Shown in pieces: positions 592-26,500 of a stretch of DNA of 64,000 nt. Position 1 is the first letter of the stretch. Every line of letters starts with the position of its first letter. The position numbers and the translations under genes were made by a program. Source of the DNA: a virus; IMG/VR virus record IMGVR_UViG_3300013131_000041, positions 5,680-69,679 of that record; one strand, 5' to 3'. The notes under the pieces were generated by a model, which did not search any database, was not told the origin of the DNA, and saw only the letters and a list, made by a program, of their open reading frames with translations.

Positions 592-2322
592 TTATAAACC
601 TGCGCCCGGCGTAGTTGTTGGGGTCGCGCCGCCTGCGCCGCCTGCGCCTGCTTCACCTGGTCCTGCTCCAGGTGTTGTACCCGGCATGCCCGGAGCTTCA
701 CCAGCTGGGGGTGCTTCTGGTGTTAGTGTATCCATATCTTGTTGAATTCCTGCATTAGTTACACCAACTGCACGTAGTCCTGCTTGCGGGATTTCTGTGT
801 CGCCTACTAGGCCATTTTCTTGTGCCCATAACTCGTCGTTACGTTGCATTTCCTCTTCGCTCAGATCTAAATAGCGTTCTAATAAGAATCGTTTGCTTAG
901 ATAGCCATATCCCTCAAGCTGTGCAAATGACGCTATACGTGTTTGGTCAACTTCAGCCTGGCGATATTTTGCAAAATTTTGCGGTTCGTTAAAGCGCAGT
1001 TCAAATAAGGCGTTATCAATGTTAACTCCTCTCCAGCGCATGAACATCTTAAATTCTGTGTCTAACTTCTCACACACCATTGTTTGTAGACGTTTGCAGT
1101 ATTGATTAAAGCGCCATTCTTGGATAAGTGCAGTAGTTGTTTTGCCATCACTATATGAGCGTTCACTTTCATCTGTACCAGTAGGCAGGTATGAGCTAGG
1201 AATACGCAAACCACGGAACATTTTGTTTGTAAAGAACCGTAAGTCAGTAATTTCACCTAGATTACTACCACCCGGAAATGGTTCTACGCTAGAACCACGA
1301 CCATCAGCAGTTACAGGGAAGAAGTAGTCTTCATTTGTTGACAATGGATTATATGTGGCATCCATCATGTTTTGACCGCCACCAGTTTGTGTAGGTATAC
1401 GACGTTGATGAATTTCGTTTTTAACACGTTCTACATAAGCCATAGCCATGTGTGTTGGCATATTGCCCACGTCAATCTTAAATACACGACGTTCTGGCGC
1501 ACGTTGTATGCGATAAATGATAATAGCATCTTCTAATAGTTCTTTTTGTTTAAAGATTTTAAAGATGCTTTCTAATACGCTAGTACCAAATGGCCAATTT
1601 AAGTCTAAGCCTTCTGTTAAACTGATGTGAACTACGTGTTCAGCATCAATAACTGCTTCGTTCTGTGCATGACTAAAGCGACTCCCACCACTGTACGGTG
1701 TTTGTGGTTGCACATAAGCGCCGCTAGGGCCGCCTACTTGCGGGTGATTGATAAATGTGTCACTTGAACTCAATGCGGTAGCTGTTAAGTTTTGGAAGTT
1801 AATATTAAGATCTTTAACCACATACTGCTCAGGTTTCTTGCCTTCTGCTTCGTTTACAATAACTTTAGTAATTTTGAACATTTCTGTCCAGTATAACTTA
1901 AAGTTTTCTGGATCTCGCAGGAATACCTGATCGCCATACTTAATAGTATTGCGGAATAGTTTAAACAAGCGTTTGTTTAGATCGTTTAGTGTTACCCATT
2001 GTTGTAGTTGATCTTTAAGGATTTTAACTTCGTTGTCTGTTGGGTCTTCTTTGAAGAATAAATCAAACCCTGTACCATTTTCAATGTTTGACTGTGTACA
2101 GAATTCAGCGATAATGTCTAGTGCAGCATTAACTTCGCTGTCCATGTCCATTTGTTCATATTGATTATAGCGTTCTGTACGATTAGGGTGCCCAATGTAC
2201 ACTTCTGGTAATTGACTAGCAAAGTTACGATATCCTGTATCGGGTAAGCTATTACCCCCACCATTAATAGGACTCATCATACCACTAGTATTAGCAGTCT
2301 TAAAGTATTTTTTCCACGCCAT
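592..2322 (-). CDS. gp20: Portal protein, T4 gp20-like
   Basis: Contains LLEDAIIIYRIQRAPERRVFKIDVGNMP, EDYFFP and FRGLRIPSSYL, which match conserved T4-type portal segments. 576 aa with a Pro/Gly/Ala-rich C-terminal tail. Confidence 0.93.
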   Translation of the reverse strand: MAWKKYFKTANTSGMMSPINGGGNSLPDTGYRNFASQLPEVYIGHPNRTERYNQYEQMDMDSEVNAALDIIAEFCTQSNIENGTGFDLFFKEDPTDNEVKILKDQLQQWVTLNDLNKRLFKLFRNTIKYGDQVFLRDPENFKLYWTEMFKITKVIVNEAEGKKPEQYVVKDLNINFQNLTATALSSSDTFINHPQVGGPSGAYVQPQTPYSGGSRFSHAQNEAVIDAEHVVHISLTEGLDLNWPFGTSVLESIFKIFKQKELLEDAIIIYRIQRAPERRVFKIDVGNMPTHMAMAYVERVKNEIHQRRIPTQTGGGQNMMDATYNPLSTNEDYFFPVTADGRGSSVEPFPGGSNLGEITDLRFFTNKMFRGLRIPSSYLPTGTDESERSYSDGKTTTALIQEWRFNQYCKRLQTMVCEKLDTEFKMFMRWRGVNIDNALFELRFNEPQNFAKYRQAEVDQTRIASFAQLEGYGYLSKRFLLERYLDLSEEEMQRNDELWAQENGLVGDTEIPQAGLRAVGVTNAGIQQDMDTLTPEAPPAGEAPGMPGTTPGAGPGEAGAGGAGGATPTTTPGAGL

Positions 2323-2387: not shown

Positions 2388-4706
2388 TTAATTAGTATTA
2401 TGCGCCACTCTGGCAGTATGATTCACATTTTCTTTCATTAAATCTACTAATTCATTAAGTTTTGCATTTGTTTGGCCAACACCGCTACTTTCATCGTCGT
2501 TCATTGCTGCCATTGCATTTCTAATAGGTGCAGCTTCTGGTCTGCTCATAAATTCTGCTTGCAATTGATCAGCATTGAATCCCTCAAACCCTCGCATACG
2601 TTCTCTGAGTACCCCCATACGTCCTGCACTCATGCCTATCTGTGCTTGGAGATCACCTGCACCCATGCGATTGCCTGTCATTTCACGCATAGCATCAATG
2701 GCTCTCACTAAATTTGCTGTTGATGCTGTGCTTAATACACTAGAAGGTCCACTAATCAACTCAGGTCCCGATTCTCCAACCAATGCTGTTTGCCCTGCAC
2801 CCAAGGTGCCACCACCTGCCATAGTTTTTTGGAACAGTCCTAATTTTTTGTAGGTCTCCAATCGTTGATTGTAACTCGCATCAGTTTCGCCCGGTGCGCG
2901 GGCCACAATGTGAGAATACTGGTCAGCATCAAATCCCATATCAGCAGCAGCTGCTTTTTCTTTGCCTTGTTTTTCTCGTGTTGCACGAGTTGCGGCTGCA
3001 TATCCTCGCCCTGGACCTAAACCCATATCGGCTAACATATCCTCAACAACGCCTAGCATCTCTACACTTACTTTTGAAAATTGTTTAATTGCAGGAGTTA
3101 GATTTTCTTGAAGAGATAATTTTAAATCTTGTGCCGCTCTCTCAGCGCCGACCACTGAAGTAGTTAACTCATCATTGGCATTTTTAGCATCTAAGTTTGC
3201 CTCGGCCCCTTGAACCGACGATTTGGTATATTTGTTATTAATATCTATTTGATCAGATAAAGTTTTACCATATTCTTTAAGATCGCCCACTGCATACGTA
3301 GCACGACCTATAGCAGTCATACCTAAAATGCTCTTGTTAATTTCTTCGCCATGTTTGGCGTTTAATTCGGCACCTTTTTTGTATGTTAAAGTATGATTCA
3401 TATACGCATCATACAATTCTCTACCTTTATCCCTTGCGCCTTTTACTTGCGCTTCGTATATTGCACCTTGCTCATTTACTACAGCACCGTTAAAAATTAC
3501 ACGATCTTTAAAATTCTTAACTTCAACTGCGCTCATTGATGCAAGAGCGTCAGTGATTGCACGCTGCTCTTCTACGCTTTTAGTAGCTAATGCTTGTCTA
3601 AAACCTAATTCTTTTGATTCTTCTTCGGCGTGTGCCATTTTCTTTTTAGCATCTTCGCCGGTAATACTTGCAATCAATCTTAGATTTTCTGCATATTGTT
3701 GAGTTGCTCGTTGGACGTTTTGATCAGTAACTGTTTTACCGGTCAACCGCATTTGGCGAGTAACATCAGCCATTAGTTCTACTTGTTCTTCAAATCCGTA
3801 GCCCAATTTAAGTAACTGCTCTTGCGCTCCTGATTTTTTAAGCTCTGCACCAACACGGCCTAACATCTTAACCCCGTCGGTTACACTCAATCCTGCGGCG
3901 GCAATTTTGTCACTACTGCCCTTAACTACATTAGACATCTGTTCAACTGTTAGCCCAGCGTCGCCTGCCGCGGCACGCATACCTGTCATGCCATCTGTAA
4001 ACATCGCCCCAGACGCATTCATTTGATTGAATGCTTTGTATGTTTTTTCTACTTCTTTGGCTAAGATTTCTACGCCAAACTTAGCAAGTTTGGTTGCAGT
4101 TTCAGACGTGGAATCGAGTACAGTGCCTAATACTTTTAGTGCACCTCCTACTACAAACCCCCATCCTTCTGTGGCGATTCCTGCGGCCATAGCTGCGTCG
4201 CCCAACGCATTTAAACTTTTCCCAACACCCGAAGCGGCTGAACCAGCTACTTCAATACCGGCTGTCATCAGATCAGCGGCTAGCTGAGCTCCCGACGCAT
4301 CATTTTGAAGATTTTTAACAAACTGACCAATTCCCCTTACCGCACTACCGGCCATTTCAGTTGTGGCCTTTTTAGTAGATTCTGATAGTGCTTTTGTAGC
4401 TGCTTCTGCGGCTATATCGGCTTTCATCTTCTTTTTAACAGCAATTTCTGCGGAACGTTCTGCCGCAGTTGCTTTATCAGTTGATGAGCTTAATTCGTCA
4501 ATCGAATCATCAAGTTCATCCATGACCTTTTTAAGGCTAGCATAGGTAGTTTGCTGACTCTTAGAGGCTTTAGTCAGCTTGTCTATTTCTTTTTGGAACT
4601 GAGCTGCCGATTTACCACCGTTCTTGTAAATATCGTCGAGGTCGCCAGACATCGCACCCCATCTTTCAAGGAATGCCCTTAAACTTTCTAAATTTTTATC
4701 ATCCAT
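2388..4706 (-). CDS. Tail tape measure protein
   Basis: About 772 aa, Ala/Gly/Lys-rich and helical-looking, with a hydrophobic segment (AAMAAGIATEGWGFVVGGAL) and a late GGTLGAGQTALVGESGPELI motif typical of tape measure C-termini. Start placed at ATG 4706 (GAGG RBS at 4716-4719, downstream of TATAAATA). Confidence 0.7.
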   Translation of the reverse strand: MDDKNLESLRAFLERWGAMSGDLDDIYKNGGKSAAQFQKEIDKLTKASKSQQTTYASLKKVMDELDDSIDELSSSTDKATAAERSAEIAVKKKMKADIAAEAATKALSESTKKATTEMAGSAVRGIGQFVKNLQNDASGAQLAADLMTAGIEVAGSAASGVGKSLNALGDAAMAAGIATEGWGFVVGGALKVLGTVLDSTSETATKLAKFGVEILAKEVEKTYKAFNQMNASGAMFTDGMTGMRAAAGDAGLTVEQMSNVVKGSSDKIAAAGLSVTDGVKMLGRVGAELKKSGAQEQLLKLGYGFEEQVELMADVTRQMRLTGKTVTDQNVQRATQQYAENLRLIASITGEDAKKKMAHAEEESKELGFRQALATKSVEEQRAITDALASMSAVEVKNFKDRVIFNGAVVNEQGAIYEAQVKGARDKGRELYDAYMNHTLTYKKGAELNAKHGEEINKSILGMTAIGRATYAVGDLKEYGKTLSDQIDINNKYTKSSVQGAEANLDAKNANDELTTSVVGAERAAQDLKLSLQENLTPAIKQFSKVSVEMLGVVEDMLADMGLGPGRGYAAATRATREKQGKEKAAAADMGFDADQYSHIVARAPGETDASYNQRLETYKKLGLFQKTMAGGGTLGAGQTALVGESGPELISGPSSVLSTASTANLVRAIDAMREMTGNRMGAGDLQAQIGMSAGRMGVLRERMRGFEGFNADQLQAEFMSRPEAAPIRNAMAAMNDDESSGVGQTNAKLNELVDLMKENVNHTARVAHNTN

Positions 4707-4733
4707 GCTTTTATAGACCTCGGTTTTTAGCAC

Positions 4734-4741: not shown

Positions 4742-4761
4742 TAAAATATGATACTATCAAT

Positions 4762-4781: not shown

Positions 4782-5648
4782 ATGGGACAAACTCAAGTTT
4801 TCAAACAAGCTAACCCACTAACCAAACATTTTAGACAGCCAAGCATTTACATAAAACTGCCAAGTAAAGGGCATTTTTGGCCTGAGGGCAGCCTTGAACA
4901 AACAGTAACTAATGAGATTCCTGTGCTATCAATGAGTACAAAAGATGAAATAATCTTACGCACACCTGACGCACTACTAAATGGACAAGGTGTGATTGAT
5001 GTTATACAAAGTTGTTGTCCAAGTATTAAAGATGCTTGGAATATGCCTAGTATCGACGTTGATAGTGTTATTATTGCTATACGTATTGCTAGTTACGGAA
5101 ACTCAATGGATTTTAGCGCAGAATGCCCGCATTGTAAGGATACACACGATTATGCTGTTGACTTAGGTGCTGTACTGAATAGTATCGACTCGCCAAATTA
5201 TAGCAAACCTGTTGTGATAGATAATCTTAAAATCAAACTGCGTCCGCAACCATATTTTAGTTTAAATCAAACAAATATCATCGCTTACGAAGAGCAGCAA
5301 CTGTTACGATCTTTACAACTACTTGAAGATAACAGTGCAGAAACACAGACAAAATTTAATAGTCAACTGAATAAATTAATAGATCTCAACATTATGATCA
5401 CTGCTGACAGTACAGAAAGCATTGAAACCGAAGAAGGGCAGATTGTAACTGATCGAGAATTTATTAAAGAGTTTTACACAAATTGTGATAATAAAACTGT
5501 TAAAGCTGTAAAAACACAACTTGATCTATTTAACTCTCAAGCAAACATCAAACCCTTCAACGTTGTTTGTGAAAATGAAGAATGTAAAAAAGAGTTTGAC
5601 ATTAATATTGTTTTTGATTTTGCAAGTTTTTTCGGCAAAGGCTCTTAA
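4782..5648 (+). CDS. gp26: Baseplate hub assembly protein / tail assembly chaperone, T4 gp26-like
   Basis: IKLPSKG, MSTKDEIIL and IAIRIASYG segments, Zn-finger-like CPHC and CENEEC, and a C-terminal ASFFG. This fits the T4 gp26-like family. Confidence 0.7.
   Translation: MGQTQVFKQANPLTKHFRQPSIYIKLPSKGHFWPEGSLEQTVTNEIPVLSMSTKDEIILRTPDALLNGQGVIDVIQSCCPSIKDAWNMPSIDVDSVIIAIRIASYGNSMDFSAECPHCKDTHDYAVDLGAVLNSIDSPNYSKPVVIDNLKIKLRPQPYFSLNQTNIIAYEEQQLLRSLQLLEDNSAETQTKFNSQLNKLIDLNIMITADSTESIETEEGQIVTDREFIKEFYTNCDNKTVKAVKTQLDLFNSQANIKPFNVVCENEECKKEFDINIVFDFASFFGKGS
5627..5633 (+). promoter_or_regulatory. Putative -1 programmed ribosomal frameshift site (T TTT TTC)
   Basis: Canonical X XXY YYZ heptamer in the correct frame, 4 codons before the stop of 4782..5648. 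The -1 frame stays open for 76 codons to TAA at 5861-5863. Confidence 0.6.
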
Positions 5649-5951: not shown

Positions 5952-6185
5952 ATGGAAATCTTAGCAAAAGTGAAAGGATGGGCAAATGCCCTTGCAGACG
6001 CATTAGTTAGTGTACTAGCACTAGCAATCGTTTTAGAAGTATTGTTTAAGGGAGCAGCTGTCCCATTTCTACCAGCAACAGATGTAATTGGTTCAGTTAC
6101 AGCAATCGTTAAAACACTAGGTGGTGAAGGTGTTGTTGGGTTAGTAGCTTTATGGGTACTATATTCAATTTGGAAGAACAAGTAA
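5952..6185 (+). CDS. Small membrane protein (77 aa, two hydrophobic segments), function unknown
   Basis: AGGAG RBS at 5939-5943, TAAATA at 5898-5903, hydrophobic stretches LVSVLALAIVLEVLF and GVVGLVALWVLYSIW, basic C-terminus, followed by its own terminator. Confidence 0.8.
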   Translation: MEILAKVKGWANALADALVSVLALAIVLEVLFKGAAVPFLPATDVIGSVTAIVKTLGGEGVVGLVALWVLYSIWKNK

Positions 6186-6207
6186 TTTAGTTCTTTTTAA
6201 TTCGAAG

Positions 6208-6241
6208 AAAGGATTAAGTGTAACAGCTTAGTCCTTTTTTT
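6208..6241 (+). terminator. Rho-independent terminator
   Basis: Stem AAAGGATTAAG / CTTAGTCCTTT with one G-U pair valid on the plus strand, 8-nt loop, T7 run, just after the stop of 5952..6185. Confidence 0.75.
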
Positions 6242-6277
6242 ATTGATTAGAATTTGCACTTTGTATCAGTTAGTTTA

Positions 6278-6327
6278 AGATGTCTGCGACATCTGCAATT
6301 ATCGCTATCGCTCAATTGCTTTTTTTT
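6278..6327. repeat. Tandem inverted repeats (hairpin pair) at a convergent strand switch
   Basis: Perfect AGATGTC-TGC-GACATCT (6278-6294) immediately followed by GCAATT-N13-AATTGC (6295-6319) and T8. Confidence 0.7.
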
Positions 6328-6379
6328 ATCTTCTACGTTGTTTATATTAGTTTACTATGAAACATACGTTAAGTCTTGT

Positions 6380-6730
6380 GCTATCATCCAGATATCAGTC
6401 ACAATTTACCTATCCGAGGCAAATTGCAACTGCACGCATCATCCGAGTACGGCATCACACTAACTAAAAGAGATTGTTATCATTAACACGGAAGCGGTCA
6501 GCCTGTACTCCCTACTCTAGATTTTTCTGGCGGTAGCTCAAACAGCCGTAGTTAGCCAACTGTTATTTTACTCTCGGGTCGGTTTGTTTCGGAGCCCGAA
6601 TCATTTGGTTTTTACACCTAAGTTGAATGCCAATGCCGTTACGTGTCTAGTCTACTCTAGACGTTCCAAGCGCGGCCATTACGCGAGCGCCATCACCTCG
6701 TAACACAGAACTATGTCTGCAATAGGGCTA
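6380..6730 (-). ncRNA. Putative large structured non-coding RNA; family not identified, boundaries approximate
   Basis: No credible ORF, higher GC than its flanks, and several stems. One 16-bp stem at 6396-6432 has three G-U pairs that are only valid on the minus strand. Confidence 0.55.
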
Positions 6731-6732
6731 AT

Positions 6733-7170
6733 TTACTTCTTTATTACTAAATCTTTTACTGAATTTTTGCCGAGTTTGATTTGAATTATGCCGTTGTAGT
6801 TGTTCTCACGTAGTAACACATCTTCTTTAAATTGATAATATGCTTCTAAATAGTTTGTTTCACCTCTGCTGTTACATAAGTGAACTATTTCGCGAGTAAA
6901 CTTGTCTTTGCCATGAGTGTCGATATCTGCTTGTAGTCGCGGACTAGATCCCCAGTAGGTCTTCCAATCTGTTTCTACCGTTTCACGACGTTTATTTTTC
7001 TTGCCTTTTAGAGGTGGTCTCTTTTTGATTGTAGTGAAATACTTGCGGCCAATGTAGTCATGACCATTTATTGTGTTGGTAATTCTGTAGATAAAGCCAT
7101 AATAAGTGCCGATATCCTCAGACTCAAATGCTACACCGTTATAAGTCCAAGGATGATCGTATGATGCCAT
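6733..7170 (-). CDS. GIY-YIG family nuclease-like protein (145 aa)
   Basis: YGFIYRITNTINGHDYIGRK is a GIY-YIG motif variant, followed by YWGSS, LEA and YN. Start at ATG 7170, 5 nt after TAAATA. Confidence 0.75.
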   Translation of the reverse strand: MASYDHPWTYNGVAFESEDIGTYYGFIYRITNTINGHDYIGRKYFTTIKKRPPLKGKKNKRRETVETDWKTYWGSSPRLQADIDTHGKDKFTREIVHLCNSRGETNYLEAYYQFKEDVLLRENNYNGIIQIKLGKNSVKDLVIKK

Positions 7171-7184
7171 AGTACTATTTATTT

Positions 7185-7880
7185 TTAATCCCAAATTGAT
7201 GACAAATATTCTGTGTACAAATATTTGGCAAATTTACTGTGACTGTCGGTATCTTTCAACTGACCAGTTGGTGTAGTAGTAATATTATTCTGTTTGGCCC
7301 AAGAAGGAATACTTAAATCAAAAATATCCACAATGTTTTTTCTTTTTGCTAATGATTGATAAGATTCGGTCCCTAAAATATAACCTAAATTGCTCATTGA
7401 TTTTACGTTAGTTGCTGCAGAAAAAATAAAATATGGTATTTGTAAATTTTCTAACGTACTAGTAAACATAAAGAGTTTATAGAAAAAGTGTGCAAATTGT
7501 GTGTTTATGTCTTCGTCGACAAGAGATTGTAATCTATACGCTGATAATTCTGATCTTGATAAAAAATCACGAGTTACTAGTTTACAACTACCTGAACTAT
7601 CAAATTTTGACACAATACTTAAATCACTAGTCTCAGGTGCCCATACTTCTTCTCTGGTAATAAAACTTAATCCAATTAATGCAAAAAAATTTTGATTGTA
7701 ACTTTTTAATTTTAAACAATCTTCTATAGTAGTTCTAAAGATTCGATCATTAGATGATCCTGGTATAGCTTTATTAATATAATTAACATTAAAAGTTTTT
7801 GCTAACACTTGACCATAAACAGAAATATTATCAACATCAGCTGAATAACTATCTCCGTTTATGTACAAGGTATTATACAT
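7185..7880 (-). CDS. SGNH/GDSL-like protein
   Basis: N-terminal LYINGDSY, NKAIPGSSNDRI and a C-terminal His. Same family pattern as the paralogs at 52771, 60642, 61278 and 61910. DNA is AT-rich. Confidence 0.6.
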   Translation of the reverse strand: MYNTLYINGDSYSADVDNISVYGQVLAKTFNVNYINKAIPGSSNDRIFRTTIEDCLKLKSYNQNFFALIGLSFITREEVWAPETSDLSIVSKFDSSGSCKLVTRDFLSRSELSAYRLQSLVDEDINTQFAHFFYKLFMFTSTLENLQIPYFIFSAATNVKSMSNLGYILGTESYQSLAKRKNIVDIFDLSIPSWAKQNNITTTPTGQLKDTDSHSKFAKYLYTEYLSSIWD

Positions 7881-8266: not shown

Positions 8267-9280
8267 TTACCATTCTGTAGCGTACTGCTGATTTACCACT
8301 GATATACTACATTTAGTCTTACATTCTGTCCAGGTAAAATTTTCAAAATCACCTGACCAAAATTCGTCATTTAACACTGTTTCTAGTGTTTTTTCGTTCA
8401 AATTGAACTGTTTTGATCTATCTAGCCATTCGTTGTTATGATTATATCTGTTAGCTACCCAACAACAAGGCATTAATCTTCCTTGACTGTTTATAAACAA
8501 TCCTTTATTACCCAAACTGCACAACGGCAACACATCTTCATAAATCCTAGCGTTGGTATATAACTTCTTATTAGTTTCTAACCCTATTTCACTAGGTCTA
8601 CGATCTGTAAAATATGTATACTCACGTTGGAATCTATAATTACTGCTAATAAGTTCGTCTTTAGGTTGTAACAGATCACCTTCTGGATAGATACTATATA
8701 CTTTATTAAATTTTGTGCTCAATGTCAACTGAAATTGATCAAACCTTAATTGTTTTGCTAATGCCTTCATTTTATCTAAGTGATCTTCGTTAAACTTAAA
8801 TGCAATAGCGTCCCATGTCATGTAGGCCTTGCTGACAAATCTAAACGACTCGATACCTCTAATAATACTAGCCCAATCGCTGTTTACACGATACTGTTCA
8901 TTGCTTGCTTGATCCCACCCATCTAAACTAAAGTGTATATGATCGTTGGCATCTAAACTAACTCCTAGTTGTTGCCACCATTCGGTGTTTTTGTAGCTAC
9001 CATTGGTTACAATAACAAATTTAACTGGTTTGATACTTTTAAAATAACGTATAACAGGGATTAAAGACTTGGCATAAATTGGATCACCGTCATCACCGCA
9101 CAATGTGATCTTTTCTACATTGGCTCGAATAAAGTCTGGTGTAAAGTTGCGTTTGAAGAAGTCTAAGTCTAGTTCTGTATTAACTAAGGTATCAGGAACT
9201 TCTGTGCGAGCACAGCGTGGGCATTTTAATGTACACTTGCTGGATATTTCGATATGCCAATGCCAAGTTGCTAATTTCAA
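8267..9280 (-). CDS. Radical SAM protein with C-terminal SPASM/twitch-like domain
   Basis: CTLKCPRC (CxxxCxxC), CGDDGDP, VTNG, and C-terminal C...PCCW...CKTKC. TTG start overlaps the stop of gp46. Confidence 0.85.
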   Translation of the reverse strand: MKLATWHWHIEISSKCTLKCPRCARTEVPDTLVNTELDLDFFKRNFTPDFIRANVEKITLCGDDGDPIYAKSLIPVIRYFKSIKPVKFVIVTNGSYKNTEWWQQLGVSLDANDHIHFSLDGWDQASNEQYRVNSDWASIIRGIESFRFVSKAYMTWDAIAFKFNEDHLDKMKALAKQLRFDQFQLTLSTKFNKVYSIYPEGDLLQPKDELISSNYRFQREYTYFTDRRPSEIGLETNKKLYTNARIYEDVLPLCSLGNKGLFINSQGRLMPCCWVANRYNHNNEWLDRSKQFNLNEKTLETVLNDEFWSGDFENFTWTECKTKCSISVVNQQYATEW

Positions 9281-11049
9281 GATACTTCTACATCCGTGTT
9301 GTAAGTTGTAAACCCGTTTTCTTTAACCACAGTAAGGATATTATTCACTCGGCCTGCTAGTTCATCTTTATGTGAAACTAGCCATACACTCTTGTTACTA
9401 TCACGTGTCATTTTCTTAAGAATGGCCAAACTATTTTCTACACCGCTACTATCCATGCCACTATCAACTAACTCATCGATGAATAACAAGTTAATAGGCT
9501 GATACAATGATTCCCACACATCACGGAACGCCCATGACAAACTTAAAATTAATCGATTGCGTTCACCACGGCTTAAGTTATCAAAGTCCAACTCTCTGCC
9601 TAGCTCTTGAATTTCTACACTTAAGTCATTTAAGAACTTAACTTGATGCGGTAAGCCAATCTTATCTAGATAATAACTTAGTCGAGCATTCAAGTAACTT
9701 AAGTTTTGATCAATGATACGTTTACGAATGTAACTGTCTTTATTGGTGAGCAATTTGTATAAGAACTCTTGGTGATCGCGAACACGCACCAACTCATTCA
9801 TGTTTGTGTAGTCAATATCAGCCAGAGCAGTTTGCTTCATTTCCTCAATCTGTTCAGTGTACGGGTCTGTTTCGATACGTTTGGATTCTAACTGACTCTG
9901 TAAACTAGCCACAGTTGAACGATGATGAATAGCATCTTCTTCTTTATCGTAAAACACCTTAGGCTGTGCGCCTAACTCGCCTAGTTCCGTAAGCGCATCA
10001 TTGTTTTGTACTAATTGTGTTTGTGTGCTTAGGTATTGTAGTGCGGCTTCTTTAAGTGCAGCTTCTTTGGCTGTAAATACTTCTTCGTGTTTAGCGTCGT
10101 GCATTGTTTGACCGCAGGCATAACACTTGTGCTCTTTTAAATCCGCAATTTCTGTTTCTAACTTAGTAATTAACTTTTCTTCTTTGGCCATATCTTGTTC
10201 ACAACGTAGAACATATTTCTTTACGTCATCTATATCTTTGCGTTTTTGATTGTAGGCGGTAAGAGCTTTGTGTGCGGCAATTTCACTATCGATGTCAATA
10301 TGAGATAACTGTTCAATCGCCGTTTCTAATTTAACAACATCTTCGGCGTGTTTATTCTGCCACAATCCTTGTCTACGTTCCAGACTAACAATCTGTTCTT
10401 TGATACGTTCGTTGGCTTCCTGGATAGCTTTAATTTTGTATTCTTCTGCTTGGATAGCATCTTTACTAGCTTTTTGCTGTTCTTTTAATGCTTCTGCTTT
10501 CTCACTCAAAAGTGTAATACCAAGCAACTGTTCAATGATAGCTCGTTGATCGCCTGATTTTAAACTTAGGAATGGTTCTGTGTAGGTATTAAGTGCTACA
10601 ATGTGCTTGAACATATCGTGCGTCATTCCCAACAAGCGTTCAATTTCGGCTTGTGTTTCACGACTATCACCTTGACTGTTATCGTCTTTAGCTTCTTGCT
10701 CTTGGTCGCCAATGTAAAACTTCATCACATTTGACTTGCGACCACGTTCAATCTTATAGTCAACACCATTAACTTCAAACTCGATGGTAACTAACATGTT
10801 CTTACCATTGGTCTTGTTGATTAAGTTGTCTTTGCGAATGTTGGTTAGAGCATTACCGTATAAGGCATAGCTTAAGGCATTAATGATAGTAGTTTTACCT
10901 GTACCATTACGTGCACCTGAATCATCACCGCCTAGGTCAATGTTCTCACCTAAGACAAGTGTTAAGTCTTTGCGGTCAAAGTTAACTGCCTGGGTAGCAT
11001 TACCCACGCTCATAAAGTTTTTAACTGTTAAATGTTTTATTCTAAACAA
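9277..11049 (-). CDS. gp46: Recombination nuclease ATPase subunit (gp46 / SbcC / Rad50-like)
   Basis: KNFMSVG, Walker A GARNGTGKT, coiled coil with CYAC zinc hook, signature LSRGE, Walker B LLFIDE, and VSH. Confidence 0.93.
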   Translation of the reverse strand: MFRIKHLTVKNFMSVGNATQAVNFDRKDLTLVLGENIDLGGDDSGARNGTGKTTIINALSYALYGNALTNIRKDNLINKTNGKNMLVTIEFEVNGVDYKIERGRKSNVMKFYIGDQEQEAKDDNSQGDSRETQAEIERLLGMTHDMFKHIVALNTYTEPFLSLKSGDQRAIIEQLLGITLLSEKAEALKEQQKASKDAIQAEEYKIKAIQEANERIKEQIVSLERRQGLWQNKHAEDVVKLETAIEQLSHIDIDSEIAAHKALTAYNQKRKDIDDVKKYVLRCEQDMAKEEKLITKLETEIADLKEHKCYACGQTMHDAKHEEVFTAKEAALKEAALQYLSTQTQLVQNNDALTELGELGAQPKVFYDKEEDAIHHRSTVASLQSQLESKRIETDPYTEQIEEMKQTALADIDYTNMNELVRVRDHQEFLYKLLTNKDSYIRKRIIDQNLSYLNARLSYYLDKIGLPHQVKFLNDLSVEIQELGRELDFDNLSRGERNRLILSLSWAFRDVWESLYQPINLLFIDELVDSGMDSSGVENSLAILKKMTRDSNKSVWLVSHKDELAGRVNNILTVVKENGFTTYNTDVEVS

Positions 11050-12066
11050 TTATAAGTGCCTATAGATGTCAAGTAAAAGATTAGGATCGTAGTGATCGCT
11101 GTTGATATTTGTTAGATTGTTTGTAACAATGGTGTCAATACTTTCAAACTGTACATTGCCTAGGGCAATATCCTGACCTAGGTCAATTTGTTTATTAGGG
11201 ATCAATGTAAGCTCGCGTAAGGTATATTGTCTCACAAATGTTTCTTTAATAAACGTAGATTCTTCGTAGGTAATATCGATGTCAATATTAACACGAGTGT
11301 GCATATCTTTTAATAATAGCTGATCTGGAACACGAAGTACATCACTTAGGTTATATATACGGTAGCGTGGTTGATCAGGCCAGGCATAAAACTCTGGACT
11401 CTCTCCCCAAGTAAGTACCATCATGCCACGTTCGTCGTCTGCTGCATCTGCGAAGTTGTGCGGGAAACAGTTACCAATATAGGTAATGTTCTTAGCAGTT
11501 TGTCGTTTATGGAAGTGTCCACTAAACACATGATCAATGTGACCAAAGTTTTCGCTACGCAATTCGCCGTGTTCAGGCATCTGTACCATGGCATTCATAT
11601 AAAAATGCGGCAGTTCAAAGTGCCCAAACATGTACTTGGCGTTTAACTTGCTAATTCGTTTATGATCATCTCCCACCAACCAAGGTGCGATAACAACGTC
11701 ACTATCGATAAACCAATCGTTAACAATTCTAACATTGGGTAAATGTCGTGCCCATTCAACGCTTTGAATATCTCGTTTATCTCGATAATAAAGATCGTGA
11801 TTACCAGGGATAAAATAAACGACATCAAAAGCTTCATTTAATAATTCCAGTGCTCGCAAGCTGTAGTTGAGTGTAACGATATTAATTGCCGCACGGTTAT
11901 TATGCCAATCGCCTAAGAAGAAACAGGTCTCACAACCTTCTTCCTTGGCTTTGACAATAAACCAACGGATAAAGTTTAAACAGTCGTCGTTATGTAGTTG
12001 GCTGTTAGACTTTAATCCAAAATGGATGTCGGTGCAGACTGCCGCTTTTTTAAATAAATTAGCCAT
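11050..12066 (-). CDS. gp47: Recombination nuclease subunit (gp47 / SbcD / Mre11-like)
   Basis: Metallophosphoesterase motifs TDIHFG, LGDW, GNHD, GH and GHFH. Adjacent to gp46. Confidence 0.93.
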   Translation of the reverse strand: MANLFKKAAVCTDIHFGLKSNSQLHNDDCLNFIRWFIVKAKEEGCETCFFLGDWHNNRAAINIVTLNYSLRALELLNEAFDVVYFIPGNHDLYYRDKRDIQSVEWARHLPNVRIVNDWFIDSDVVIAPWLVGDDHKRISKLNAKYMFGHFELPHFYMNAMVQMPEHGELRSENFGHIDHVFSGHFHKRQTAKNITYIGNCFPHNFADAADDERGMMVLTWGESPEFYAWPDQPRYRIYNLSDVLRVPDQLLLKDMHTRVNIDIDITYEESTFIKETFVRQYTLRELTLIPNKQIDLGQDIALGNVQFESIDTIVTNNLTNINSDHYDPNLLLDIYRHL

Positions 12067-12121: not shown

Positions 12122-13006
12122 TTATTCGTCAGGACCCCAACCACCGCCGTTGCCCCACTCGCCTTGTCGTGTGTAACTTGGGTTATAGTTGTTCATTTCT
12201 AAAATATCGTCACGAATATTCTGATTACGTTTTTCAATGTTTAATACACGTGTAAAACTGTTGGTAATTGCTGCTGTGTAATAAGCGAAAGGATTTTGTG
12301 ATTTGCTTTCGTCAAACTGTAGACCAATTTGACTTAACTGTAGTAATGCTTGGCTACGCATTTCATCGTTGTAGGTATAACCACGCCAGTTACTACGAGT
12401 TGCGTACCTTTCGCATAACTTAATAAACATGTGGGCTAACTTATTGGTCATCGTGCCATGATCTTTACTAAACTTGCCTTTTTCTATGCCGCCCTTCCAG
12501 TGACTCATGCCTACTAGGTAAGGAGTATTGGTCTCGTCTACTTTGTAATGCTTAAACGGAGGGAAGTTACATTTAGTGTATTTTGCAGGTGCTTTAATCT
12601 GCATGTCAGGGTCGTCATACTCTGTTTCAAAGTCTTCGTCTTCTTCTAACTCTTCACGGAGTTTAGCATCTGCTTTCTTTTGTTTAGCTTCGTCGATTGG
12701 AATATGTTCCCATGTCATGACACGGAAAACAACGTCTGTACTTGGGGTATCTTTCAGTGGGCCAGTGTATTCGTCTAATTTCTTTTTAATGCCATTAAGG
12801 AGGTCTTGTTCTTGGAGTTCTTTGCCTAAACGCTCTATGCGAGCTTTACGTGCTTCTTCAATGTGTTTTTTAGTGATTTTATCTACGCCGGTTACGATCA
12901 TGTCATAATCTTTGTCCGATGGTGTTGTAAAACTACAAAATGTTGCTTTACTTTTATGGATTTCTTTTAAGATATCCTTATTGTTTAGGTAGTTGACCTT
13001 TCTCAT
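12122..13006 (-). CDS. gp55: Late transcription sigma factor, T4 gp55-like
   Basis: NYLNNKD at the N-terminus and RSNWRGYTYNDEM...FDESKSQNPFAYYT..ITNSF.R...EKR match gp55. T4-like synteny 55-47-46 is preserved, and TAAATA motifs precede structural genes. Confidence 0.85.
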   Translation of the reverse strand: MRKVNYLNNKDILKEIHKSKATFCSFTTPSDKDYDMIVTGVDKITKKHIEEARKARIERLGKELQEQDLLNGIKKKLDEYTGPLKDTPSTDVVFRVMTWEHIPIDEAKQKKADAKLREELEEDEDFETEYDDPDMQIKAPAKYTKCNFPPFKHYKVDETNTPYLVGMSHWKGGIEKGKFSKDHGTMTNKLAHMFIKLCERYATRSNWRGYTYNDEMRSQALLQLSQIGLQFDESKSQNPFAYYTAAITNSFTRVLNIEKRNQNIRDDILEMNNYNPSYTRQGEWGNGGGWGPDE

Positions 13007-23516: not shown

Positions 23517-26500
23517 ATGGCGACAAGAAAAACCTACAAATTTTTACCCTCAGTATTCCAAAGCGATGCTAATAAGAAATTCTTATCAGCCACGGTTGAT
23601 CAGTTAGTAACTGACCCCAACTTAGATACGCTTTATGGGTATGTGGGGCGTAAATTTGCTCCAACATATAAATCTAGTGATAGTTACGTAACTGAAACAG
23701 ATCCTCTGAGACAAAATTATCAGTTAGAGCCGGGCGTGGTCATTCGTGATGAAAATAATAACATCACTTTTGTTGCTGACTATCCTGATCTTCTTGACAA
23801 AATTTCATACTATGGTGGTTTAACCAATAATCATAGTCGACTATTTGAACAAGAGTACTACACGTTTGATCCTAAGATCAGTTACGACAAACTGGTTAAC
23901 TTCTCGCAATACTACTGGCTACCTAACGGTCCTGATGCTGTAGAGGTTAACTCAAGCGGTGTAGATATCACAGCGACCTACACAGTAACTCGTGATGGCG
24001 CTAATGGTCGATATATCTTTAAGAACAATGGAGTTGTTGATAACAGTATTATTTTTGCACACGGTGGTGTATATCAATTTGTAGTTGATCAGCCGGGCTA
24101 TCCTTTTTGGATCCAAACTGAATTAGGGGTTGATGGCGTAGTTAGTGCCACACCTACACTAAGCTCGCGCGACATCTACGGAGTAGATAATAACGGTACT
24201 GACCAAGGTACTATTACATTCCGTGTACCACAAACTTATGCGCAAGATCGTTGGGTAAATATGCCTACAGTATTCAGCGCAGACTATGCAACTCCTATTC
24301 CTTACTACAAACTAGCTAATAGAACACTAAGTCAATTCTTAGCAGAATATCCGCAATACGCAGGTATTACTGGACAACTAAACGGCAAGTATACAATTTT
24401 TACTGAGGTTAGCACATGGACTAGCGTGGGCGAAGATGCTTGGACTAACCCAGCAGTTATTGATAGTGATGGTGATGTGGTTCCTGGATATTCGGCTGGG
24501 GATGTGATTGCAGAGGCTGAACGCTATGATGTGTGGCGAGTGGTATATGTTGATATTGGTCAAAAATTAAAATTAGATGCACCGGTTGCGGCTAACATCA
24601 CAGCAGGCACAAGTTTAACAGTTGGTACTCAACTAACATCATTATTGTATGATGCAGTTGTTGGTCAAGAGTATGTGTATGTTCCAAATACATTTACAGC
24701 AAGTGTAGCTGAGGTTGTTAAGCGTACCGATGTAGTTACTGCTTTATCAGCAACAACATCAGGTACCAATGAAATCACAGTTACATCAACAGCTGGCTTA
24801 GTGCCAGATATGCCTATAGTATTCATTGGTGCGCCAACAGTGGGGGGCATAGTATCAGGTACAACATATTATGTAAAAGATGTTGTTAATCTGACAACTC
24901 TTACTATTAGCGAAACAGTAGGCGGCAGTGAATATGCCTTAACAAATGACACCGGGATCATGGATGTAACAGCATCCTATACAGATATCCCTGCTGGCGC
25001 AGCTATTACTGCTATAGCCAAAGGCGATCCATTATTAAAATTAGTTCATGAACAAACAGTGGCAGTTGACGAAAAAGTCTACATCAGATTCGGAGTCCAA
25101 AACACTAACAAAGAATACTACAAAGACTATGATGGTTTCTTTTACGAGACACCTGTCATCACAGCACAAAGTGATCAGTTGTGGATACAAGATGGTGTTT
25201 CTGCGAGAATTTATTCACCTATCAAGATTATTGATTATGCTGGGTGGAATATCGATGTAGAAAATGATATTATTGGTCAGCTCAACTATACAAGTCCAAA
25301 TAGTGTTGAATTTACGTCAGGCCTTAAAGTACAATTTGGTGATGACGTAATACCTGCAAGTTATCAGAATCGCCAGTTCTATGTAGAACAAGTTGGTGAC
25401 ACTACTGATGGCATCCAATTAGTGCCAGTTGATGAATTAGTTACTCCTGAATCCTACAATGATGAAATAACTACAAATTATCCAGGCGAATTCTTCCCAG
25501 ATTATATCACAGTGAATCGTGCTAATAAGGCACGGAATGCCTGGGCCCGTAATAATCGTTGGTTCCACATAGATGTTATTACTGCCACTGCCGCATATAA
25601 CAGTACAGTACCTACATTTGATAACGGTATTCGTGGACAACGTCCTATCGTGCAGTTTGAAGCAAACTATCAACTATATAACGATGGTCGTGTTGCCAAA
25701 GCACCAATTGACATTTTAGACACTAGCATCACTAGCGCATTTACGCAACTACAAGGTCAAACATACACTAGTATATTTGGCATTGAAATTATTAACAGCA
25801 ACGGTGACATAGTATATCCTAATGGCCTGCGAGTAGTTTTTGCCGCAGATGAAGATCCTTTAGTTAAAAACAAAATTTATGTACTAACAGTAGTACAATA
25901 CGACGTTGATGATTACGGCAATCCTACAGGCACAAAATATATCGAGTTAACCAAAGCAGATGACGGGGATATTATTGCCTACAATACCACAGTGGTTAAA
26001 CTAGGTTCATACAAAGGCAGCCAATGGTGGTTTGATGGTATAAATTGGAATTCAAGCCAGCAGAAAACATACCTGCAACAACCTCCACTGTTTGATGTAT
26101 TAGATGCTACAGGTAAGAGCCTAAGCGCATACACCCGCAGCACATTTACAGGTACACAACTTTTTGGATATGTTCGTGCTACAACAGGGACCACTGATTC
26201 AGTGCTGAGCAGAGGACCAGTCGCTCCGGTGTATGACAGTGACAATAATGCTATTACAAATTTCTATTTGAGTTACAAAAACTTTACAACGCAGGGCGAC
26301 ATTAAATTTGAAAATTTCTTTAATACAGATACTTTCAGTTATGTAGATTCTAGCAGTAGCATTGTTACTAAAAATATTAATTTAGGCTATTTACAAAAAG
26401 TGGTAGATAGCCAAACTCTTATACCTAAGAATACTTGGCTAACTGTGCCAGAACACAGTAAACAATATCAACTATTCAGTTTTGTTTATGCAACTGGTAA

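What the first reader, a model, noticed from the sequence alone, without database searches (positions are those of the whole stretch)
6380..6730. Candidate large structured ncRNA on the minus strand
Seen: this is the only long non-coding stretch in a genome otherwise packed with overlapping genes, and it is GC-richer than its flanks. Minus-strand stems include CAGTTGCAATTTGCCT-CGGAT-AGGTAAATTGTGACTG (6396-6432; 16 bp with three G-U pairs that would be A-C mismatches on the plus strand), GGGAG...CTTCC (6490-6512) with a competing GAGTAC/GTACTC pairing (6505-6510 with 6445-6450), AACAG/CTGTT (6541-6564), TCGGG/CCCGA (6574-6599) and GTCTAG/CTAGAC (6645-6662). Established: phages carry large ornate RNAs of unknown function such as GOLLD and ROOL. 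Inference: a 350-450-nt multi-domain RNA. I cannot assign it to a family by eye, so it may be new.
Basis: partly seen in the sequence, partly recalled or inferred. Interest (0 to 1): 0.8.

Follow-up and report, generated by a model that had tools for sequence, protein, structure and literature searches.

The report
New large structured phage RNA
The gap holds the gene for a roughly 455-base, intricately folded non-coding RNA that matches no catalogued RNA family and is shared by hundreds of uncultured lake phages, so it is a strong candidate for a new class of functional RNA.

Summary
Window 6277-6731 (minus strand) encodes a ~455-nt structured RNA. A profile built from it finds one copy in each of 198 viral-metagenome loci. 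118 of those loci were collected by an RNA motif alone.

On 48 distinct sequences, a curated fold of 103 pairs is 92.6% paired. 54 pairs changed on both sides, and 0 of 500 shuffles reached that; slid controls gave 32-43% paired. Two pseudoknots covary.

It is not coding. There is no Rfam match and no tRNA or tmRNA. It was absent from GenBank phages, from four cultured relatives and from 185,579 species genomes.

The phage is a jumbo phage with T4-type core genes. The RNA ends a leftward gene block, usually just after a SegE-type GIY-YIG nuclease gene.

One feature is unexplained. Two 11-nt single-stranded motifs 55 nt apart keep identical letters at three variable positions, through about 15-22 joint changes per position.

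Function is unknown. My best guess is a stable RNA acting in trans that presents twin pairing sites.

The parts
6277..6731 (-). Whole conserved RNA (~455 nt). RNA position p corresponds to window coordinate 6736-p.
   Evidence: Profile nhmmer aligns positions 2-452 of the profile to 6731-6277 (E 1.4e-112). It finds one hit in each of 198 related loci.
6635..6728 (-). 5' domain. Closing helix P0 (6726-6728 with 6635-6637), hairpin P1 (6705-6720), and long-range P2 (6699-6704 with 6638-6643) enclosing hairpins P3 (6669-6691) and P4 (6645-6662).
   Evidence: P2 has 5 of 6 pairs with double changes, P3 5 of 5, P4 5 of 6. The P0 middle pair is CG 34, UA 13, AU 1. The P0 long-range pair is 100% Watson-Crick in 70 sequences (rank 7). 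A divergent subfamily has a remodelled 5' domain.
6535..6618 (-). Middle hairpins: P6 (6607-6618), P7 (6574-6599) and the long hairpin P8 (6535-6572), whose loop forms pseudoknot PK1.
   Evidence: P6 100% paired with 2 of 3 pairs double-changed; P7 3 of 5; P8 stem 6 of 8 double-changed, 95.5% paired.
6549..6555 (-). PK1, 5' strand (the P8 loop), pairing with 6460-6466.
   Evidence: In the diverse alignment A2, 6 of 7 pairs have double changes and 92.9% of cells are paired. Whole-loop replacements are compensated in the partner strand, as read.
6460..6466 (-). PK1, 3' strand.
   Evidence: rank 36.
6527..6531 (-). PK2, 5' strand, pairing with the P10 loop at 6497-6501.
   Evidence: Two pairs are 100% Watson-Crick, each with two roughly equally common types (CG 72/UA 61; GC 69/AU 62) in 133 sequences (ranks 22 and 27). 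3 of 5 pairs have double changes on A1.
6469..6518 (-). Three-way junction: P9' (6515-6518 with 6469-6472), P10 (6490-6512) and P11 (6475-6488). This is the most conserved stretch of the RNA.
   Evidence: P9' pair: AU 101, UA 29, GC 3, 100% Watson-Crick (rank 13). P10 and P11. Invariant letters.
6435..6451 (-). Hairpin P12 with the 11-nt loop motif m1 (6438-6448, ACUCRGAURAW).
   Evidence: The stem changes with compensation across subfamilies (read). It is poorly aligned in A1 (59.7% paired). The motif is tabulated.
6396..6432 (-).
   Evidence: 13 pairs scored: 5 with double changes, 97.7% paired.
6383..6393 (-). Motif m2 (AUCURGAURAW), unpaired in the model. It is the twin of m1.
   Evidence: Identical to m1 at each of three variable positions in 124 of 126 sequences. 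Mutual information is about 1 bit with m1 and at most 0.57 bit with any other column.
6320..6379 (-). AT-rich linker, variable in sequence and length.
   Evidence: Alignment A1, columns about 415-500. No match longer than 11 nt elsewhere in the window.
6278..6319 (-). 3' module: hairpin P14 (6295-6319) with a mostly GNRA-type end loop, then hairpin P15 (6278-6294).
   Evidence: P14 and P15 each have 3 pairs with double changes. The module is kept in the divergent subfamily (profile matches reach position 440-452). The loop letters were read.
6733..7194 (-). Context: 153-aa SegE-type GIY-YIG protein gene. Its stop codon abuts the RNA.
   Evidence: Pfam PF19835, E 5.7e-38. Among 95 motif-collected loci with enough upstream DNA, it lies directly upstream in 69, further upstream in 16, and is not found in 10.
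5952..6245 (+). Context: convergent 77-aa ORF (5952-6185), followed by a plus-strand hairpin and T-run at about 6210-6241.
   Evidence: ORF. Its homologue lies beside the RNA in relatives. The hairpin and T-run were read by eye, and the consensus scan did not list it.

Best explanation
Window 6277-6731 (minus strand) is the gene of a previously undescribed structured non-coding RNA of about 455 nt. It belongs to a clade of uncultured jumbo phages with T4-type core genes.

Shown: the RNA folds into
- a closed 5' domain (P0-P4);
- a double-pseudoknotted core (P6-P11, PK1, PK2) with about 40 invariant letters;
- a 3' part that displays two matching single-stranded 11-nt motifs on either side of a long hairpin;
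- a variable linker;
- a terminal two-hairpin module.

Inferred:
- It is made as the tail of the leftward transcript that carries the DNA-metabolism genes, because its conservation starts at the stop codon of whatever gene lies upstream.
- It ends at the terminal hairpins.
- It works as a folded, stable RNA acting in trans (a scaffold, decoy or catalyst) rather than as a mere terminator.
- The twin motifs are its working sites. Most likely they are two equal pairing sites for a partner nucleic acid encoded elsewhere in the phage genome, which changes with them.
- The nuclease genes beside it are homing-type genes that ride on a very conserved RNA gene, as SegB does in the T4 tRNA cluster.
For: Existence and fold:
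- One copy in each of 198 loci plus the window. 118 of those loci were collected by an RNA motif, not by the neighbouring protein.
- 103 pairs, 92.6% paired. 54 pairs and 519 cells have double changes, against a shuffled mean of 36 pairs and 152 cells; 0 of 500 shuffles reach the observed values. Slid controls give 32-43% paired and 13-19 pairs.
- The core, on 33 more diverse sequences, gives the same result.
- Long-range pairs P0, P9' and PK2 were found blind by mutual information, each 100% Watson-Crick.

Strand: fold z is -2.76 on the minus strand and -0.42 on the plus strand. There are invariant G-U pairs.

Not coding: no conserved frame. Variability shows no three-base periodicity (0.55/0.66/0.60).

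More conserved than its neighbours: the core motif is near-invariant in loci where the GIY-YIG protein is only 32-41% identical.

Co-transcription: the 90 nt upstream are unrelated when the upstream gene differs, yet conservation starts at the stop codon.

More than a terminator: the twin motifs agree at each of three variable positions in 124 of 126 sequences, through about 19, 22 and 15-16 changes on a tree built without those columns.

Nuclease neighbours: GIY-YIG, a NUMOD3 protein, or a PDDEXK nuclease. As precedent, SegB is often associated with tRNA genes (PMC13096335, abstract and section titles; PMC2330249, start of the abstract in the search listing).
Against: - No transcript evidence. 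The only RNA-library data were contigs, which cannot show strand, ends or level.
- No promoter or classical terminator was identified.
- The proposed partner of the twin motifs was not found. There is no covarying column inside the RNA, no complementary site at a conserved place within 1.5-4 kb, and no enrichment in the 64-kb window. About 80% of the genome is not in hand (completeness 20%).
- The tree rests on about 430 columns and ignores recombination, so the counts of changes are rough.
- The position at the 3' end of an operon also fits a cis role.
Confidence: 0.6

Rival explanations
1. A cis-acting 3'-untranslated element of the leftward operon. On this reading it is a large folded cap that ends transcription, blocks 3'-to-5' exonucleases, or directs processing of the upstream messenger, with no role of its own in trans.
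For: It always sits directly after the stop codon of the last gene of the block, whatever that gene is. It ends in two hairpins. It faces convergent transcription from the plus strand.
Against: About 455 nt with two pseudoknots, about 40 invariant letters and twin motifs kept identical is far more than protection or termination needs. P15 is followed by only two U. The core is better conserved than the genes it would serve.
Confidence: 0.17
2. A ribozyme, or a remnant of a mobile intron-like RNA tied to homing endonuclease genes. On this reading the fold catalyses cleavage, ligation or splicing, and the twin motifs are two equal substrate sites.
For: A pseudoknotted core with invariant unpaired letters. 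Nuclease genes of three families lie immediately upstream. Two identical sites flank a 55-nt unit.
Against: No Rfam ribozyme or intron model matches, even at E up to 10. There are no exons: the upstream ORF ends in a stop and differs between loci, and downstream genes converge. No internal guide covaries with the motifs. The GIY-YIG gene family also occurs in cyanophages and other phages without the RNA.
Confidence: 0.12
3. A DNA-level element such as a replication origin, a recombination site or a homing target. On this reading the two direct repeats around an inverted repeat are the functional part, and their identity is demanded by strand exchange or by one DNA-binding protein.
For: Direct repeats that must be identical to each other but may vary are typical of crossover cores of recombination sites (recalled knowledge, not from any call). 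Nuclease genes lie nearby.
Against: The helices keep G-U pairs that are A-C on the other strand, and compensatory changes run through 20 helices, which DNA function does not require. There are GNRA-type loops on the minus strand only. No recombinase gene is nearby. The repeats are only 55 bp apart.
Confidence: 0.04
4. A decayed or unrecognised protein-coding gene, for example the lost C-terminal DNA-binding part of the Seg-type endonuclease or a small plus-strand ORF.
For: The GIY-YIG protein is short (153 aa, with the domain at residues 16-133). A plus-strand ORF of 56-70 aa recurs in about half of the close relatives.
Against: The 153-aa length is kept at 72-97% identity in 80 loci. The plus-strand ORF has different limits or is missing in the window and in at least 20 of 48 sequences. 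There is no codon periodicity. Substitutions are compensatory in stems.
Confidence: 0.01

Closest known systems
ROOL and GOLLD RNAs (large ornate RNAs, often carried by phages or prophages)
   Same: Several hundred nucleotides, many covarying helices, no coding potential, carried by phages, biochemical function unknown. GOLLD was first seen in lake metagenomes (recalled). ROOL and GOLLD form homo-oligomers (PMC12286853; I saw only the start of the abstract in the search listing).
   Different: No match to either Rfam model at the gathering score or at E up to 10. The architecture differs: double-pseudoknot core and twin motifs. No tRNA genes lie nearby. The host phages are jumbo phages with T4-type core genes. 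Oligomerisation was not tested.
T4 tRNA gene cluster with the free-standing GIY-YIG endonuclease SegB
   Same: A Seg-type GIY-YIG gene sits beside very conserved structured-RNA genes in a T4-type phage. This is the likely reason for the nuclease neighbours here (PMC2330249, start of abstract in the listing; PMC13096335, abstract and section titles).
   Different: The RNA here is not a tRNA. Cleavage of the RNA gene by the neighbouring nuclease is not shown. The GIY-YIG protein here is a bare 153-aa domain. No tandem amplification was seen: one copy per locus.
Group I introns of T4-type phages that carry GIY-YIG endonuclease genes (td intron with I-TevI)
   Same: A pseudoknotted RNA of a few hundred nucleotides next to a GIY-YIG gene in a T4-type phage (recalled).
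   Different: It does not interrupt a gene, has no exons and gets no intron model hit. The endonuclease gene lies outside the RNA, not in one of its loops.
Nuclease-associated guide RNAs (HEARO/omega RNA of IscB and TnpB)
   Same: A structured RNA directly beside a small nuclease gene, with a variable segment inside a conserved scaffold.
   Different: The nuclease family differs and is not obligatory: 10 of 95 loci lack it, and others have a different gene in between. The same protein family occurs without the RNA. The variable linker matches nothing in the window. No Rfam hit.
RNAs or messages whose function needs two identical short sites: repeated-site sponge RNAs such as CsrB, take-off and landing codons of T4 gene 60 bypassing, and repeat-bounded templates of reverse-transcriptase defence RNAs
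   Same: Two short direct repeats that must match each other, here around a hairpin, as in gene 60 (recalled knowledge).
   Different: About half the sequences have AGA where CsrA would need GGA. No ORF enters the first motif: an invariant UAG lies 16 nt upstream in frame (read). No reverse transcriptase gene lies nearby. None of these was tested beyond that.

Membership tests
ROOL (Rfam) | Match to the family covariance model at its gathering score | tested here: not met
   No family reaches its gathering score in the 64-kb window. ROOL is not among the matches at E up to 10 in 6150-6800, nor at E up to 5 in 9 diverse homologous loci.
GOLLD (Rfam) | Match to the family covariance model at its gathering score | tested here: not met
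   Same searches as for ROOL.
Group I intron | Match to an Rfam intron model | tested here: not met
   No such match at E up to 10 or at E up to 5 in 9 homologues.
Group I intron | Interrupts a gene, with exons that join into one frame or one RNA | tested here: not met
   The upstream ORF ends with a stop codon at the RNA's first base. It is a different gene in different loci. Downstream genes are on the other strand.
Group I intron | Guanosine-binding P7 and the P3-P8 core | not tested
   No attempt was made to map these onto the fold.
tRNA / tmRNA | Cloverleaf or tRNA-like domain with a tag reading frame | tested here: not met
   ARAGORN finds none in the window.
Nuclease guide RNA (HEARO / omega RNA type) | Obligate pairing with the nuclease gene | tested here: not met
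   Of 95 motif-collected loci with upstream DNA, 10 have no GIY-YIG hit and 16 have another ORF in between. Homologues of the protein occur without the RNA in Melnitz, P-HM1 and phiM12.
Nuclease guide RNA (HEARO / omega RNA type) | A variable guide that matches a target | tested here: inconclusive
   The linker has no match longer than 11 nt in the 64-kb window. The rest of the genome and the host were not searched.
Intrinsic terminator only | GC-rich hairpin followed by a run of U on the transcribed strand | tested here: inconclusive
   P15 is a 7-bp hairpin followed by UU then A. The consensus scan lists no minus-strand terminator here. On the plus strand P14 is followed by eight T.
Large ornate phage-borne non-coding RNAs (a kind, not a homology family) | More than 400 nt, many helices supported by covariation, no coding potential, carried by phages | tested here: met
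   Phage identity comes from the portal, baseplate, gp46/47 and gp55 homologues.

The most novel reading that the evidence does not exclude
The RNA founds a new functional class, and its twin motifs obey a 'like-with-like' rule not described for natural RNAs. Two forms are possible. Either the two strands contact each other in parallel register through same-base pairs (within one molecule or in an oligomer). Or they act as matched take-off and landing sites for a copying or decoding machine, or as equal sites for a partner that evolves with them. The double-pseudoknot core would then be a catalytic or machine-binding centre. In both forms the motifs would be a built-in, testable handle on an unknown RNA mechanism in jumbo phages.
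Probability: 0.3. Interest if true: 0.92.

Novelty: categorically new. Interest (0 to 1): 0.83.

Why it matters
Large, intricately folded RNAs with deep conservation have nearly always turned out to be ribozymes or cores of ribonucleoprotein machines. Only a handful of such classes still lack a function.

This one has four useful properties:
- It is single-copy and fixed in its phage clade.
- It is absent from cellular genomes and from cultured phages.
- It has a well-determined secondary structure.

The twin motifs show about 50 joint changes in total without any complementary partner in view. That constraint is hard to explain with ordinary base pairing, and it can be tested directly with single and double mutants. 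If the RNA proves to be an anti-defence or takeover factor of jumbo phages, it would add an RNA-based layer to phage-host conflict. It would also explain why homing-type nuclease genes gather beside it.

Two caveats on novelty:
- 'New' rests on Rfam 15 and on five full-text searches.
- A 2023 catalogue of 29-151-nt candidate RNAs from the same viral collection (PMC10690425) may list fragments of it. Its supplementary tables could not be opened.

Tried and rejected
Known families:
- Rfam at gathering score on the whole window: 0 matches.
- Rfam at E up to 10 on 6150-6800: 4 weak chance-level matches (mir-2566, RAGATH-7, sau-5971, DUF805b), all far below their thresholds.
- Rfam at E up to 5 on 9 homologous loci: 2 unrelated matches outside or not shared.
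- ARAGORN: none.

Cultured phages:
- blastn of the window RNA and of two divergent members against 50,697 GenBank phage records: no match.
- Core covariance model R1 against the whole records of Atu_ph07, PA5oct, Melnitz-3 and P-HM1: nothing below E 0.69.
- The same profile finds nothing in the fetched loci of Melnitz-3, P-HM1 and phiM12.

Cellular genomes: the 29-nt core pattern gives 0 stretches.

Helices proposed and dropped:
- P9 (CUAGA with UCUGG of m2) has no double change, and its third pair is broken in the CUUGAG variants. It was replaced by P9'.
- P5 (UGGC with GCCA) clashes with the better-supported PK2.

Twin motifs, ideas tested without result:
- A partner inside the RNA: mutual information at most 0.57 bit.
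- An exact or wobble complement within 1.5-3 kb: only a codon-constrained site in the GIY-YIG motif, in 10 of 134 loci.
- Extra sense copies within 4 kb: only a start-codon coincidence in 7 loci, and a junction copy in 3.
- Enrichment in the window: 7 found against 4.6 expected.
- Tandem expansion: no third unit in any locus.
- Antiparallel m1-m2 pairing, CsrA sites and gene-60-type bypassing were considered by reading the sequences and rejected (reasons are under Closest known systems).

Other checks:
- Linker as a guide: no match.
- Promoter and terminator scans: not above shuffles. TATAAATA occurs once against 9.7 expected.

Sequencing runs:
- The two runs holding half or more of the words are lake-water metagenomes, and one may be the source.
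- The four RNA-labelled runs that were laid are contigs only. One true metatranscriptome has two 151-nt contigs of a relative, lying on 6271-6313 and 6382-6512. This cannot show transcription, strand or ends, and uncovered parts mean nothing.

Literature:
- Five full-text searches gave no description of this RNA.
- PMC10690425: abstract, outline and found passages read; supplements closed.
- 10.64898/2026.09.22.753630: abstract and outline only.
- 10.64898/2026.10.21.760802: a term search found none of 'phage', 'GIY-YIG', 'jumbo', 'freshwater', 'T4-like' or 'large structured'.

Tools not used: protein-structure, complex and atlas tools, the search for homologous proteins, and the metagenome-contig scan.
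Full report
THE REGION. The window comes from a 69,679-base viral record rated 20% complete. It carries T4-type core genes:
- portal, 592-2322 (minus strand);
- baseplate hub, 4782-5648 (plus strand);
- gp46/gp47-like nuclease subunits, 9277-12066 (minus strand);
- gp55-like late sigma factor, 12122-13006 (minus strand).

The nearest cultured phages by portal protein are the jumbo phages Atu_ph07 and PA5oct, at about 49% identity.

The finding lies between two genes:
- a 153-aa SegE-type GIY-YIG protein gene at 6733-7194, minus strand (Pfam PF19835, E 5.7e-38);
- a convergent 77-aa ORF at 5952-6185, plus strand.

The stretch 6186-6732 has no minus-strand ORF of 30 aa or more. It is the largest gap in the list of ORFs of at least 90 aa. 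Its GC content is 0.465-0.49, against 0.32-0.38 beside it. The minus strand folds better than dinucleotide shuffles (z -2.76); the plus strand does not (z -0.42).

RELATIVES. The GIY-YIG protein recovered 80 viral-metagenome loci.
- A single-sequence nhmmer search with the minus-strand gap hit 76 of the 80, always just downstream of that gene.
- The other four are contigs that end inside the RNA, and the profile finds them too.

To remove the bias of collecting by the protein, I scanned the viral collection with a 29-letter pattern from the RNA core. After three profile rounds every one of the 198 loci, and the window, has exactly one hit. The window hit runs from 6731 to 6277.

A divergent subfamily keeps the core and the 3' module but has a remodelled 5' domain.

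The pattern is absent from one genome each of 185,579 bacterial and archaeal species. blastn with three family members finds nothing in 50,697 GenBank phage records. A covariance model of the core finds nothing in the whole genomes of Atu_ph07, PA5oct, Melnitz-3 and P-HM1, and one copy in the window's own record. The two sequencing runs that hold most of the stretch are lake-water metagenomes.

NOT CODING.
- No frame stays open on the RNA strand in 63 distinct sequences.
- A plus-strand frame of 56-70 aa recurs in about half of the close relatives. It has other limits in the window and is missing in many others.
- Column variability in that frame shows no third-position excess: 0.55, 0.66, 0.60.

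THE FOLD. RNAalifold on 48 distinct sequences gave 65 pairs, 32 of them with compensatory changes. I curated the model from the alignment and from a blind mutual-information scan of 133 sequences. That scan exposed three long-range interactions, each 100% Watson-Crick:
- closing helix P0;
- helix P9' (AGAG with CUCU);
- pseudoknot PK2, between GCCAG and the P10 loop.

The final model has 103 pairs in 20 helices. RNA position p corresponds to window coordinate 6736-p.

| Measure (48 sequences) | Observed | Control |
|---|---|---|
| Cells forming a standard pair | 92.6% | shuffled mean 81.8% |
| Pairs with changes on both sides | 54 | shuffled mean 36.0 |
| Cells with changes on both sides | 519 | shuffled mean 151.7 |
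| Shuffles reaching the observed values | 0 of 500 | n/a |
| 3' partners slid by 1-3 columns | n/a | 32-43% paired, 13-19 pairs |

One measure, 'further pair types', was not above the shuffles (110 of 500 reached it).

On 33 more diverse core sequences:
- Overall result: 85.3% paired, 26 of 40 pairs with double changes, and 0 of 500 shuffles as high on all five measures.
- Pseudoknot PK1 alone: 6 of 7 pairs with double changes, 92.9% paired.

In that alignment the P8 loop is replaced wholesale in several lineages, and the partner strand changes to match.

Weak spots remain. P12 is poorly aligned in A1 (59.7% paired), though it is clear by eye across subfamilies. P7 and the outer part of P8 drop to 67-77% paired in one subgroup.

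ANATOMY, 5' TO 3'.
- P0 closes a domain in which P2 encloses hairpins P3 and P4, next to hairpin P1.
- Hairpins P6, P7 and P8 follow.
- The strand GCCAG follows (PK2).
- P9' closes a three-way junction with P10 and P11. The P10 loop returns to GCCAG.
- The strand UAGUUAG pairs with the P8 loop (PK1).
- Hairpin P12 carries the 11-nt loop m1.
- The 16-bp hairpin P13 follows.
- Single-stranded m2 follows.
- An AT-rich linker of variable length and sequence follows.
- Hairpin P14 has a mostly GNRA-type loop.
- Hairpin P15 is last.

THE TWIN MOTIFS. m1 (ACUCRGAURAW, 6438-6448) and m2 (AUCURGAURAW, 6383-6393) lie 55 nt apart. Three positions vary (R5, R9, W11), and all eight combinations occur. The two copies carry the same letters.
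- Mutual information between matching positions is 0.92-1.05 bit. With any other column it is at most 0.57 bit.
- On a tree built without these columns, R5 changes 19 times in each copy with 20 joint-state changes. R9 changes 22, 22 and 23 times. W11 changes 16, 15 and 16 times.
- The copies agree at each position in 124 of 126 sequences.

The counts are rough, because the alignment is short and recombination is ignored. Even so, eight matched combinations alone exclude chance.

This is identity in parallel register, not complementarity. I found no complementary partner in the RNA, in its flanks, or in the window. I leave the cause open between three readings:
- a partner encoded elsewhere in the genome that changes with the motifs;
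- direct like-with-like contact;
- a process that needs matched sites.

CONTEXT. Conservation of the RNA begins at the stop codon of the upstream gene, and the 90 nt before it are unrelated when that gene differs. This argues for co-transcription with the leftward block.

Among 95 motif-collected loci with enough upstream DNA:
- the GIY-YIG gene is directly upstream in 69;
- it lies further upstream in 16, with another ORF in between;
- it is not found in 10 (loci not de-duplicated).

The inserted or replacing genes that I scanned include a radical-SAM protein, NUMOD3-motif proteins and a PDDEXK nuclease. Several others have no Pfam match.

The GIY-YIG family also occurs without the RNA in cyanophages, Melnitz and rhizobiophages. 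I therefore read the nucleases as homing-type genes lodged beside a very conserved RNA gene, as SegB is in the T4 tRNA cluster. The sources are PMC2330249 (listing only) and PMC13096335 (abstract and section titles, one of which says SegB is frequently associated with tRNAs). I do not read them as partners of the RNA. This is inference.

COMPARISON WITH WHAT IS KNOWN. The RNA is of the same kind as ROOL and GOLLD: large, ornate, phage-borne and of unknown function. It is a member of neither. It is also not an intron, tRNA, tmRNA or known guide RNA (see the membership table). Five full-text searches found no description of it. A 2023 catalogue of 29-151-nt candidate RNAs mined from the same viral collection may contain pieces of it; I could read only its main text.

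VERDICT. That this is a real, structured RNA gene on the minus strand I hold at about 0.97. That it acts as a stable trans-acting RNA with the twin motifs as pairing sites I hold at about 0.6 or less. No transcript data of use could be had.

Noticed in passing
window 23517-37262 (+): A single ORF of 4,581 aa, flanked by ORFs of 1,138, 1,066 and 679 aa, in the plus-strand block. It was not annotated here.
   Followed up: no
L037:3463-4176, L066:3549-4247, L127:5981-6502, L138:1433-1954, L159:2663-3166, L018:3451-4617: In relatives, the slot directly upstream of the RNA is a hot spot for extra genes. These include NUMOD3-motif proteins (typical of homing endonucleases), PDDEXK nucleases (PF24608) and a radical-SAM/SPASM protein. 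Five further inserted ORFs of 130-337 aa have no Pfam match.
   Followed up: partly
window, whole: The T4 late-promoter word TATAAATA occurs once, where shuffles give 9.7 (sd 3.1). This suggests that late promoters of this phage differ from those of T4.
   Followed up: no
window 4696-4710 (-): The 790-aa minus-strand ORF is listed from a TTG at 4760. In the window and in six relatives, an ATG followed by GAT GAT or GAT GAA sits about 55 nt further in and may be the true start. By coincidence it repeats the seven-letter core of the twin motif of the same phage.
   Followed up: partly
window 6295-6330 (+) and about 6210-6241 (+): On the plus strand, hairpin P14 is followed by eight T, and a second hairpin with a T-run follows the 77-aa ORF (read). 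The RNA's 3' module may therefore also stop convergent plus-strand transcription. The consensus scan listed neither.
   Followed up: partly
window 8267-9280 (-) and 7185-7880 (-): A radical-SAM/SPASM protein gene and a weak DUF6071-like gene lie between the gp46-like gene and the GIY-YIG gene. The radical-SAM gene is kept in many related loci.
   Followed up: no
RNA positions about 300 and 354 (window about 6436 and 6382): The second base after m1 and the base just after m2 covary as U-G (55 sequences) or C-A (52 sequences), the classic pair of look-alike wobble pairs. This hints at a tertiary contact between the 3' flanks of the two motifs (rank 18).
   Followed up: partly
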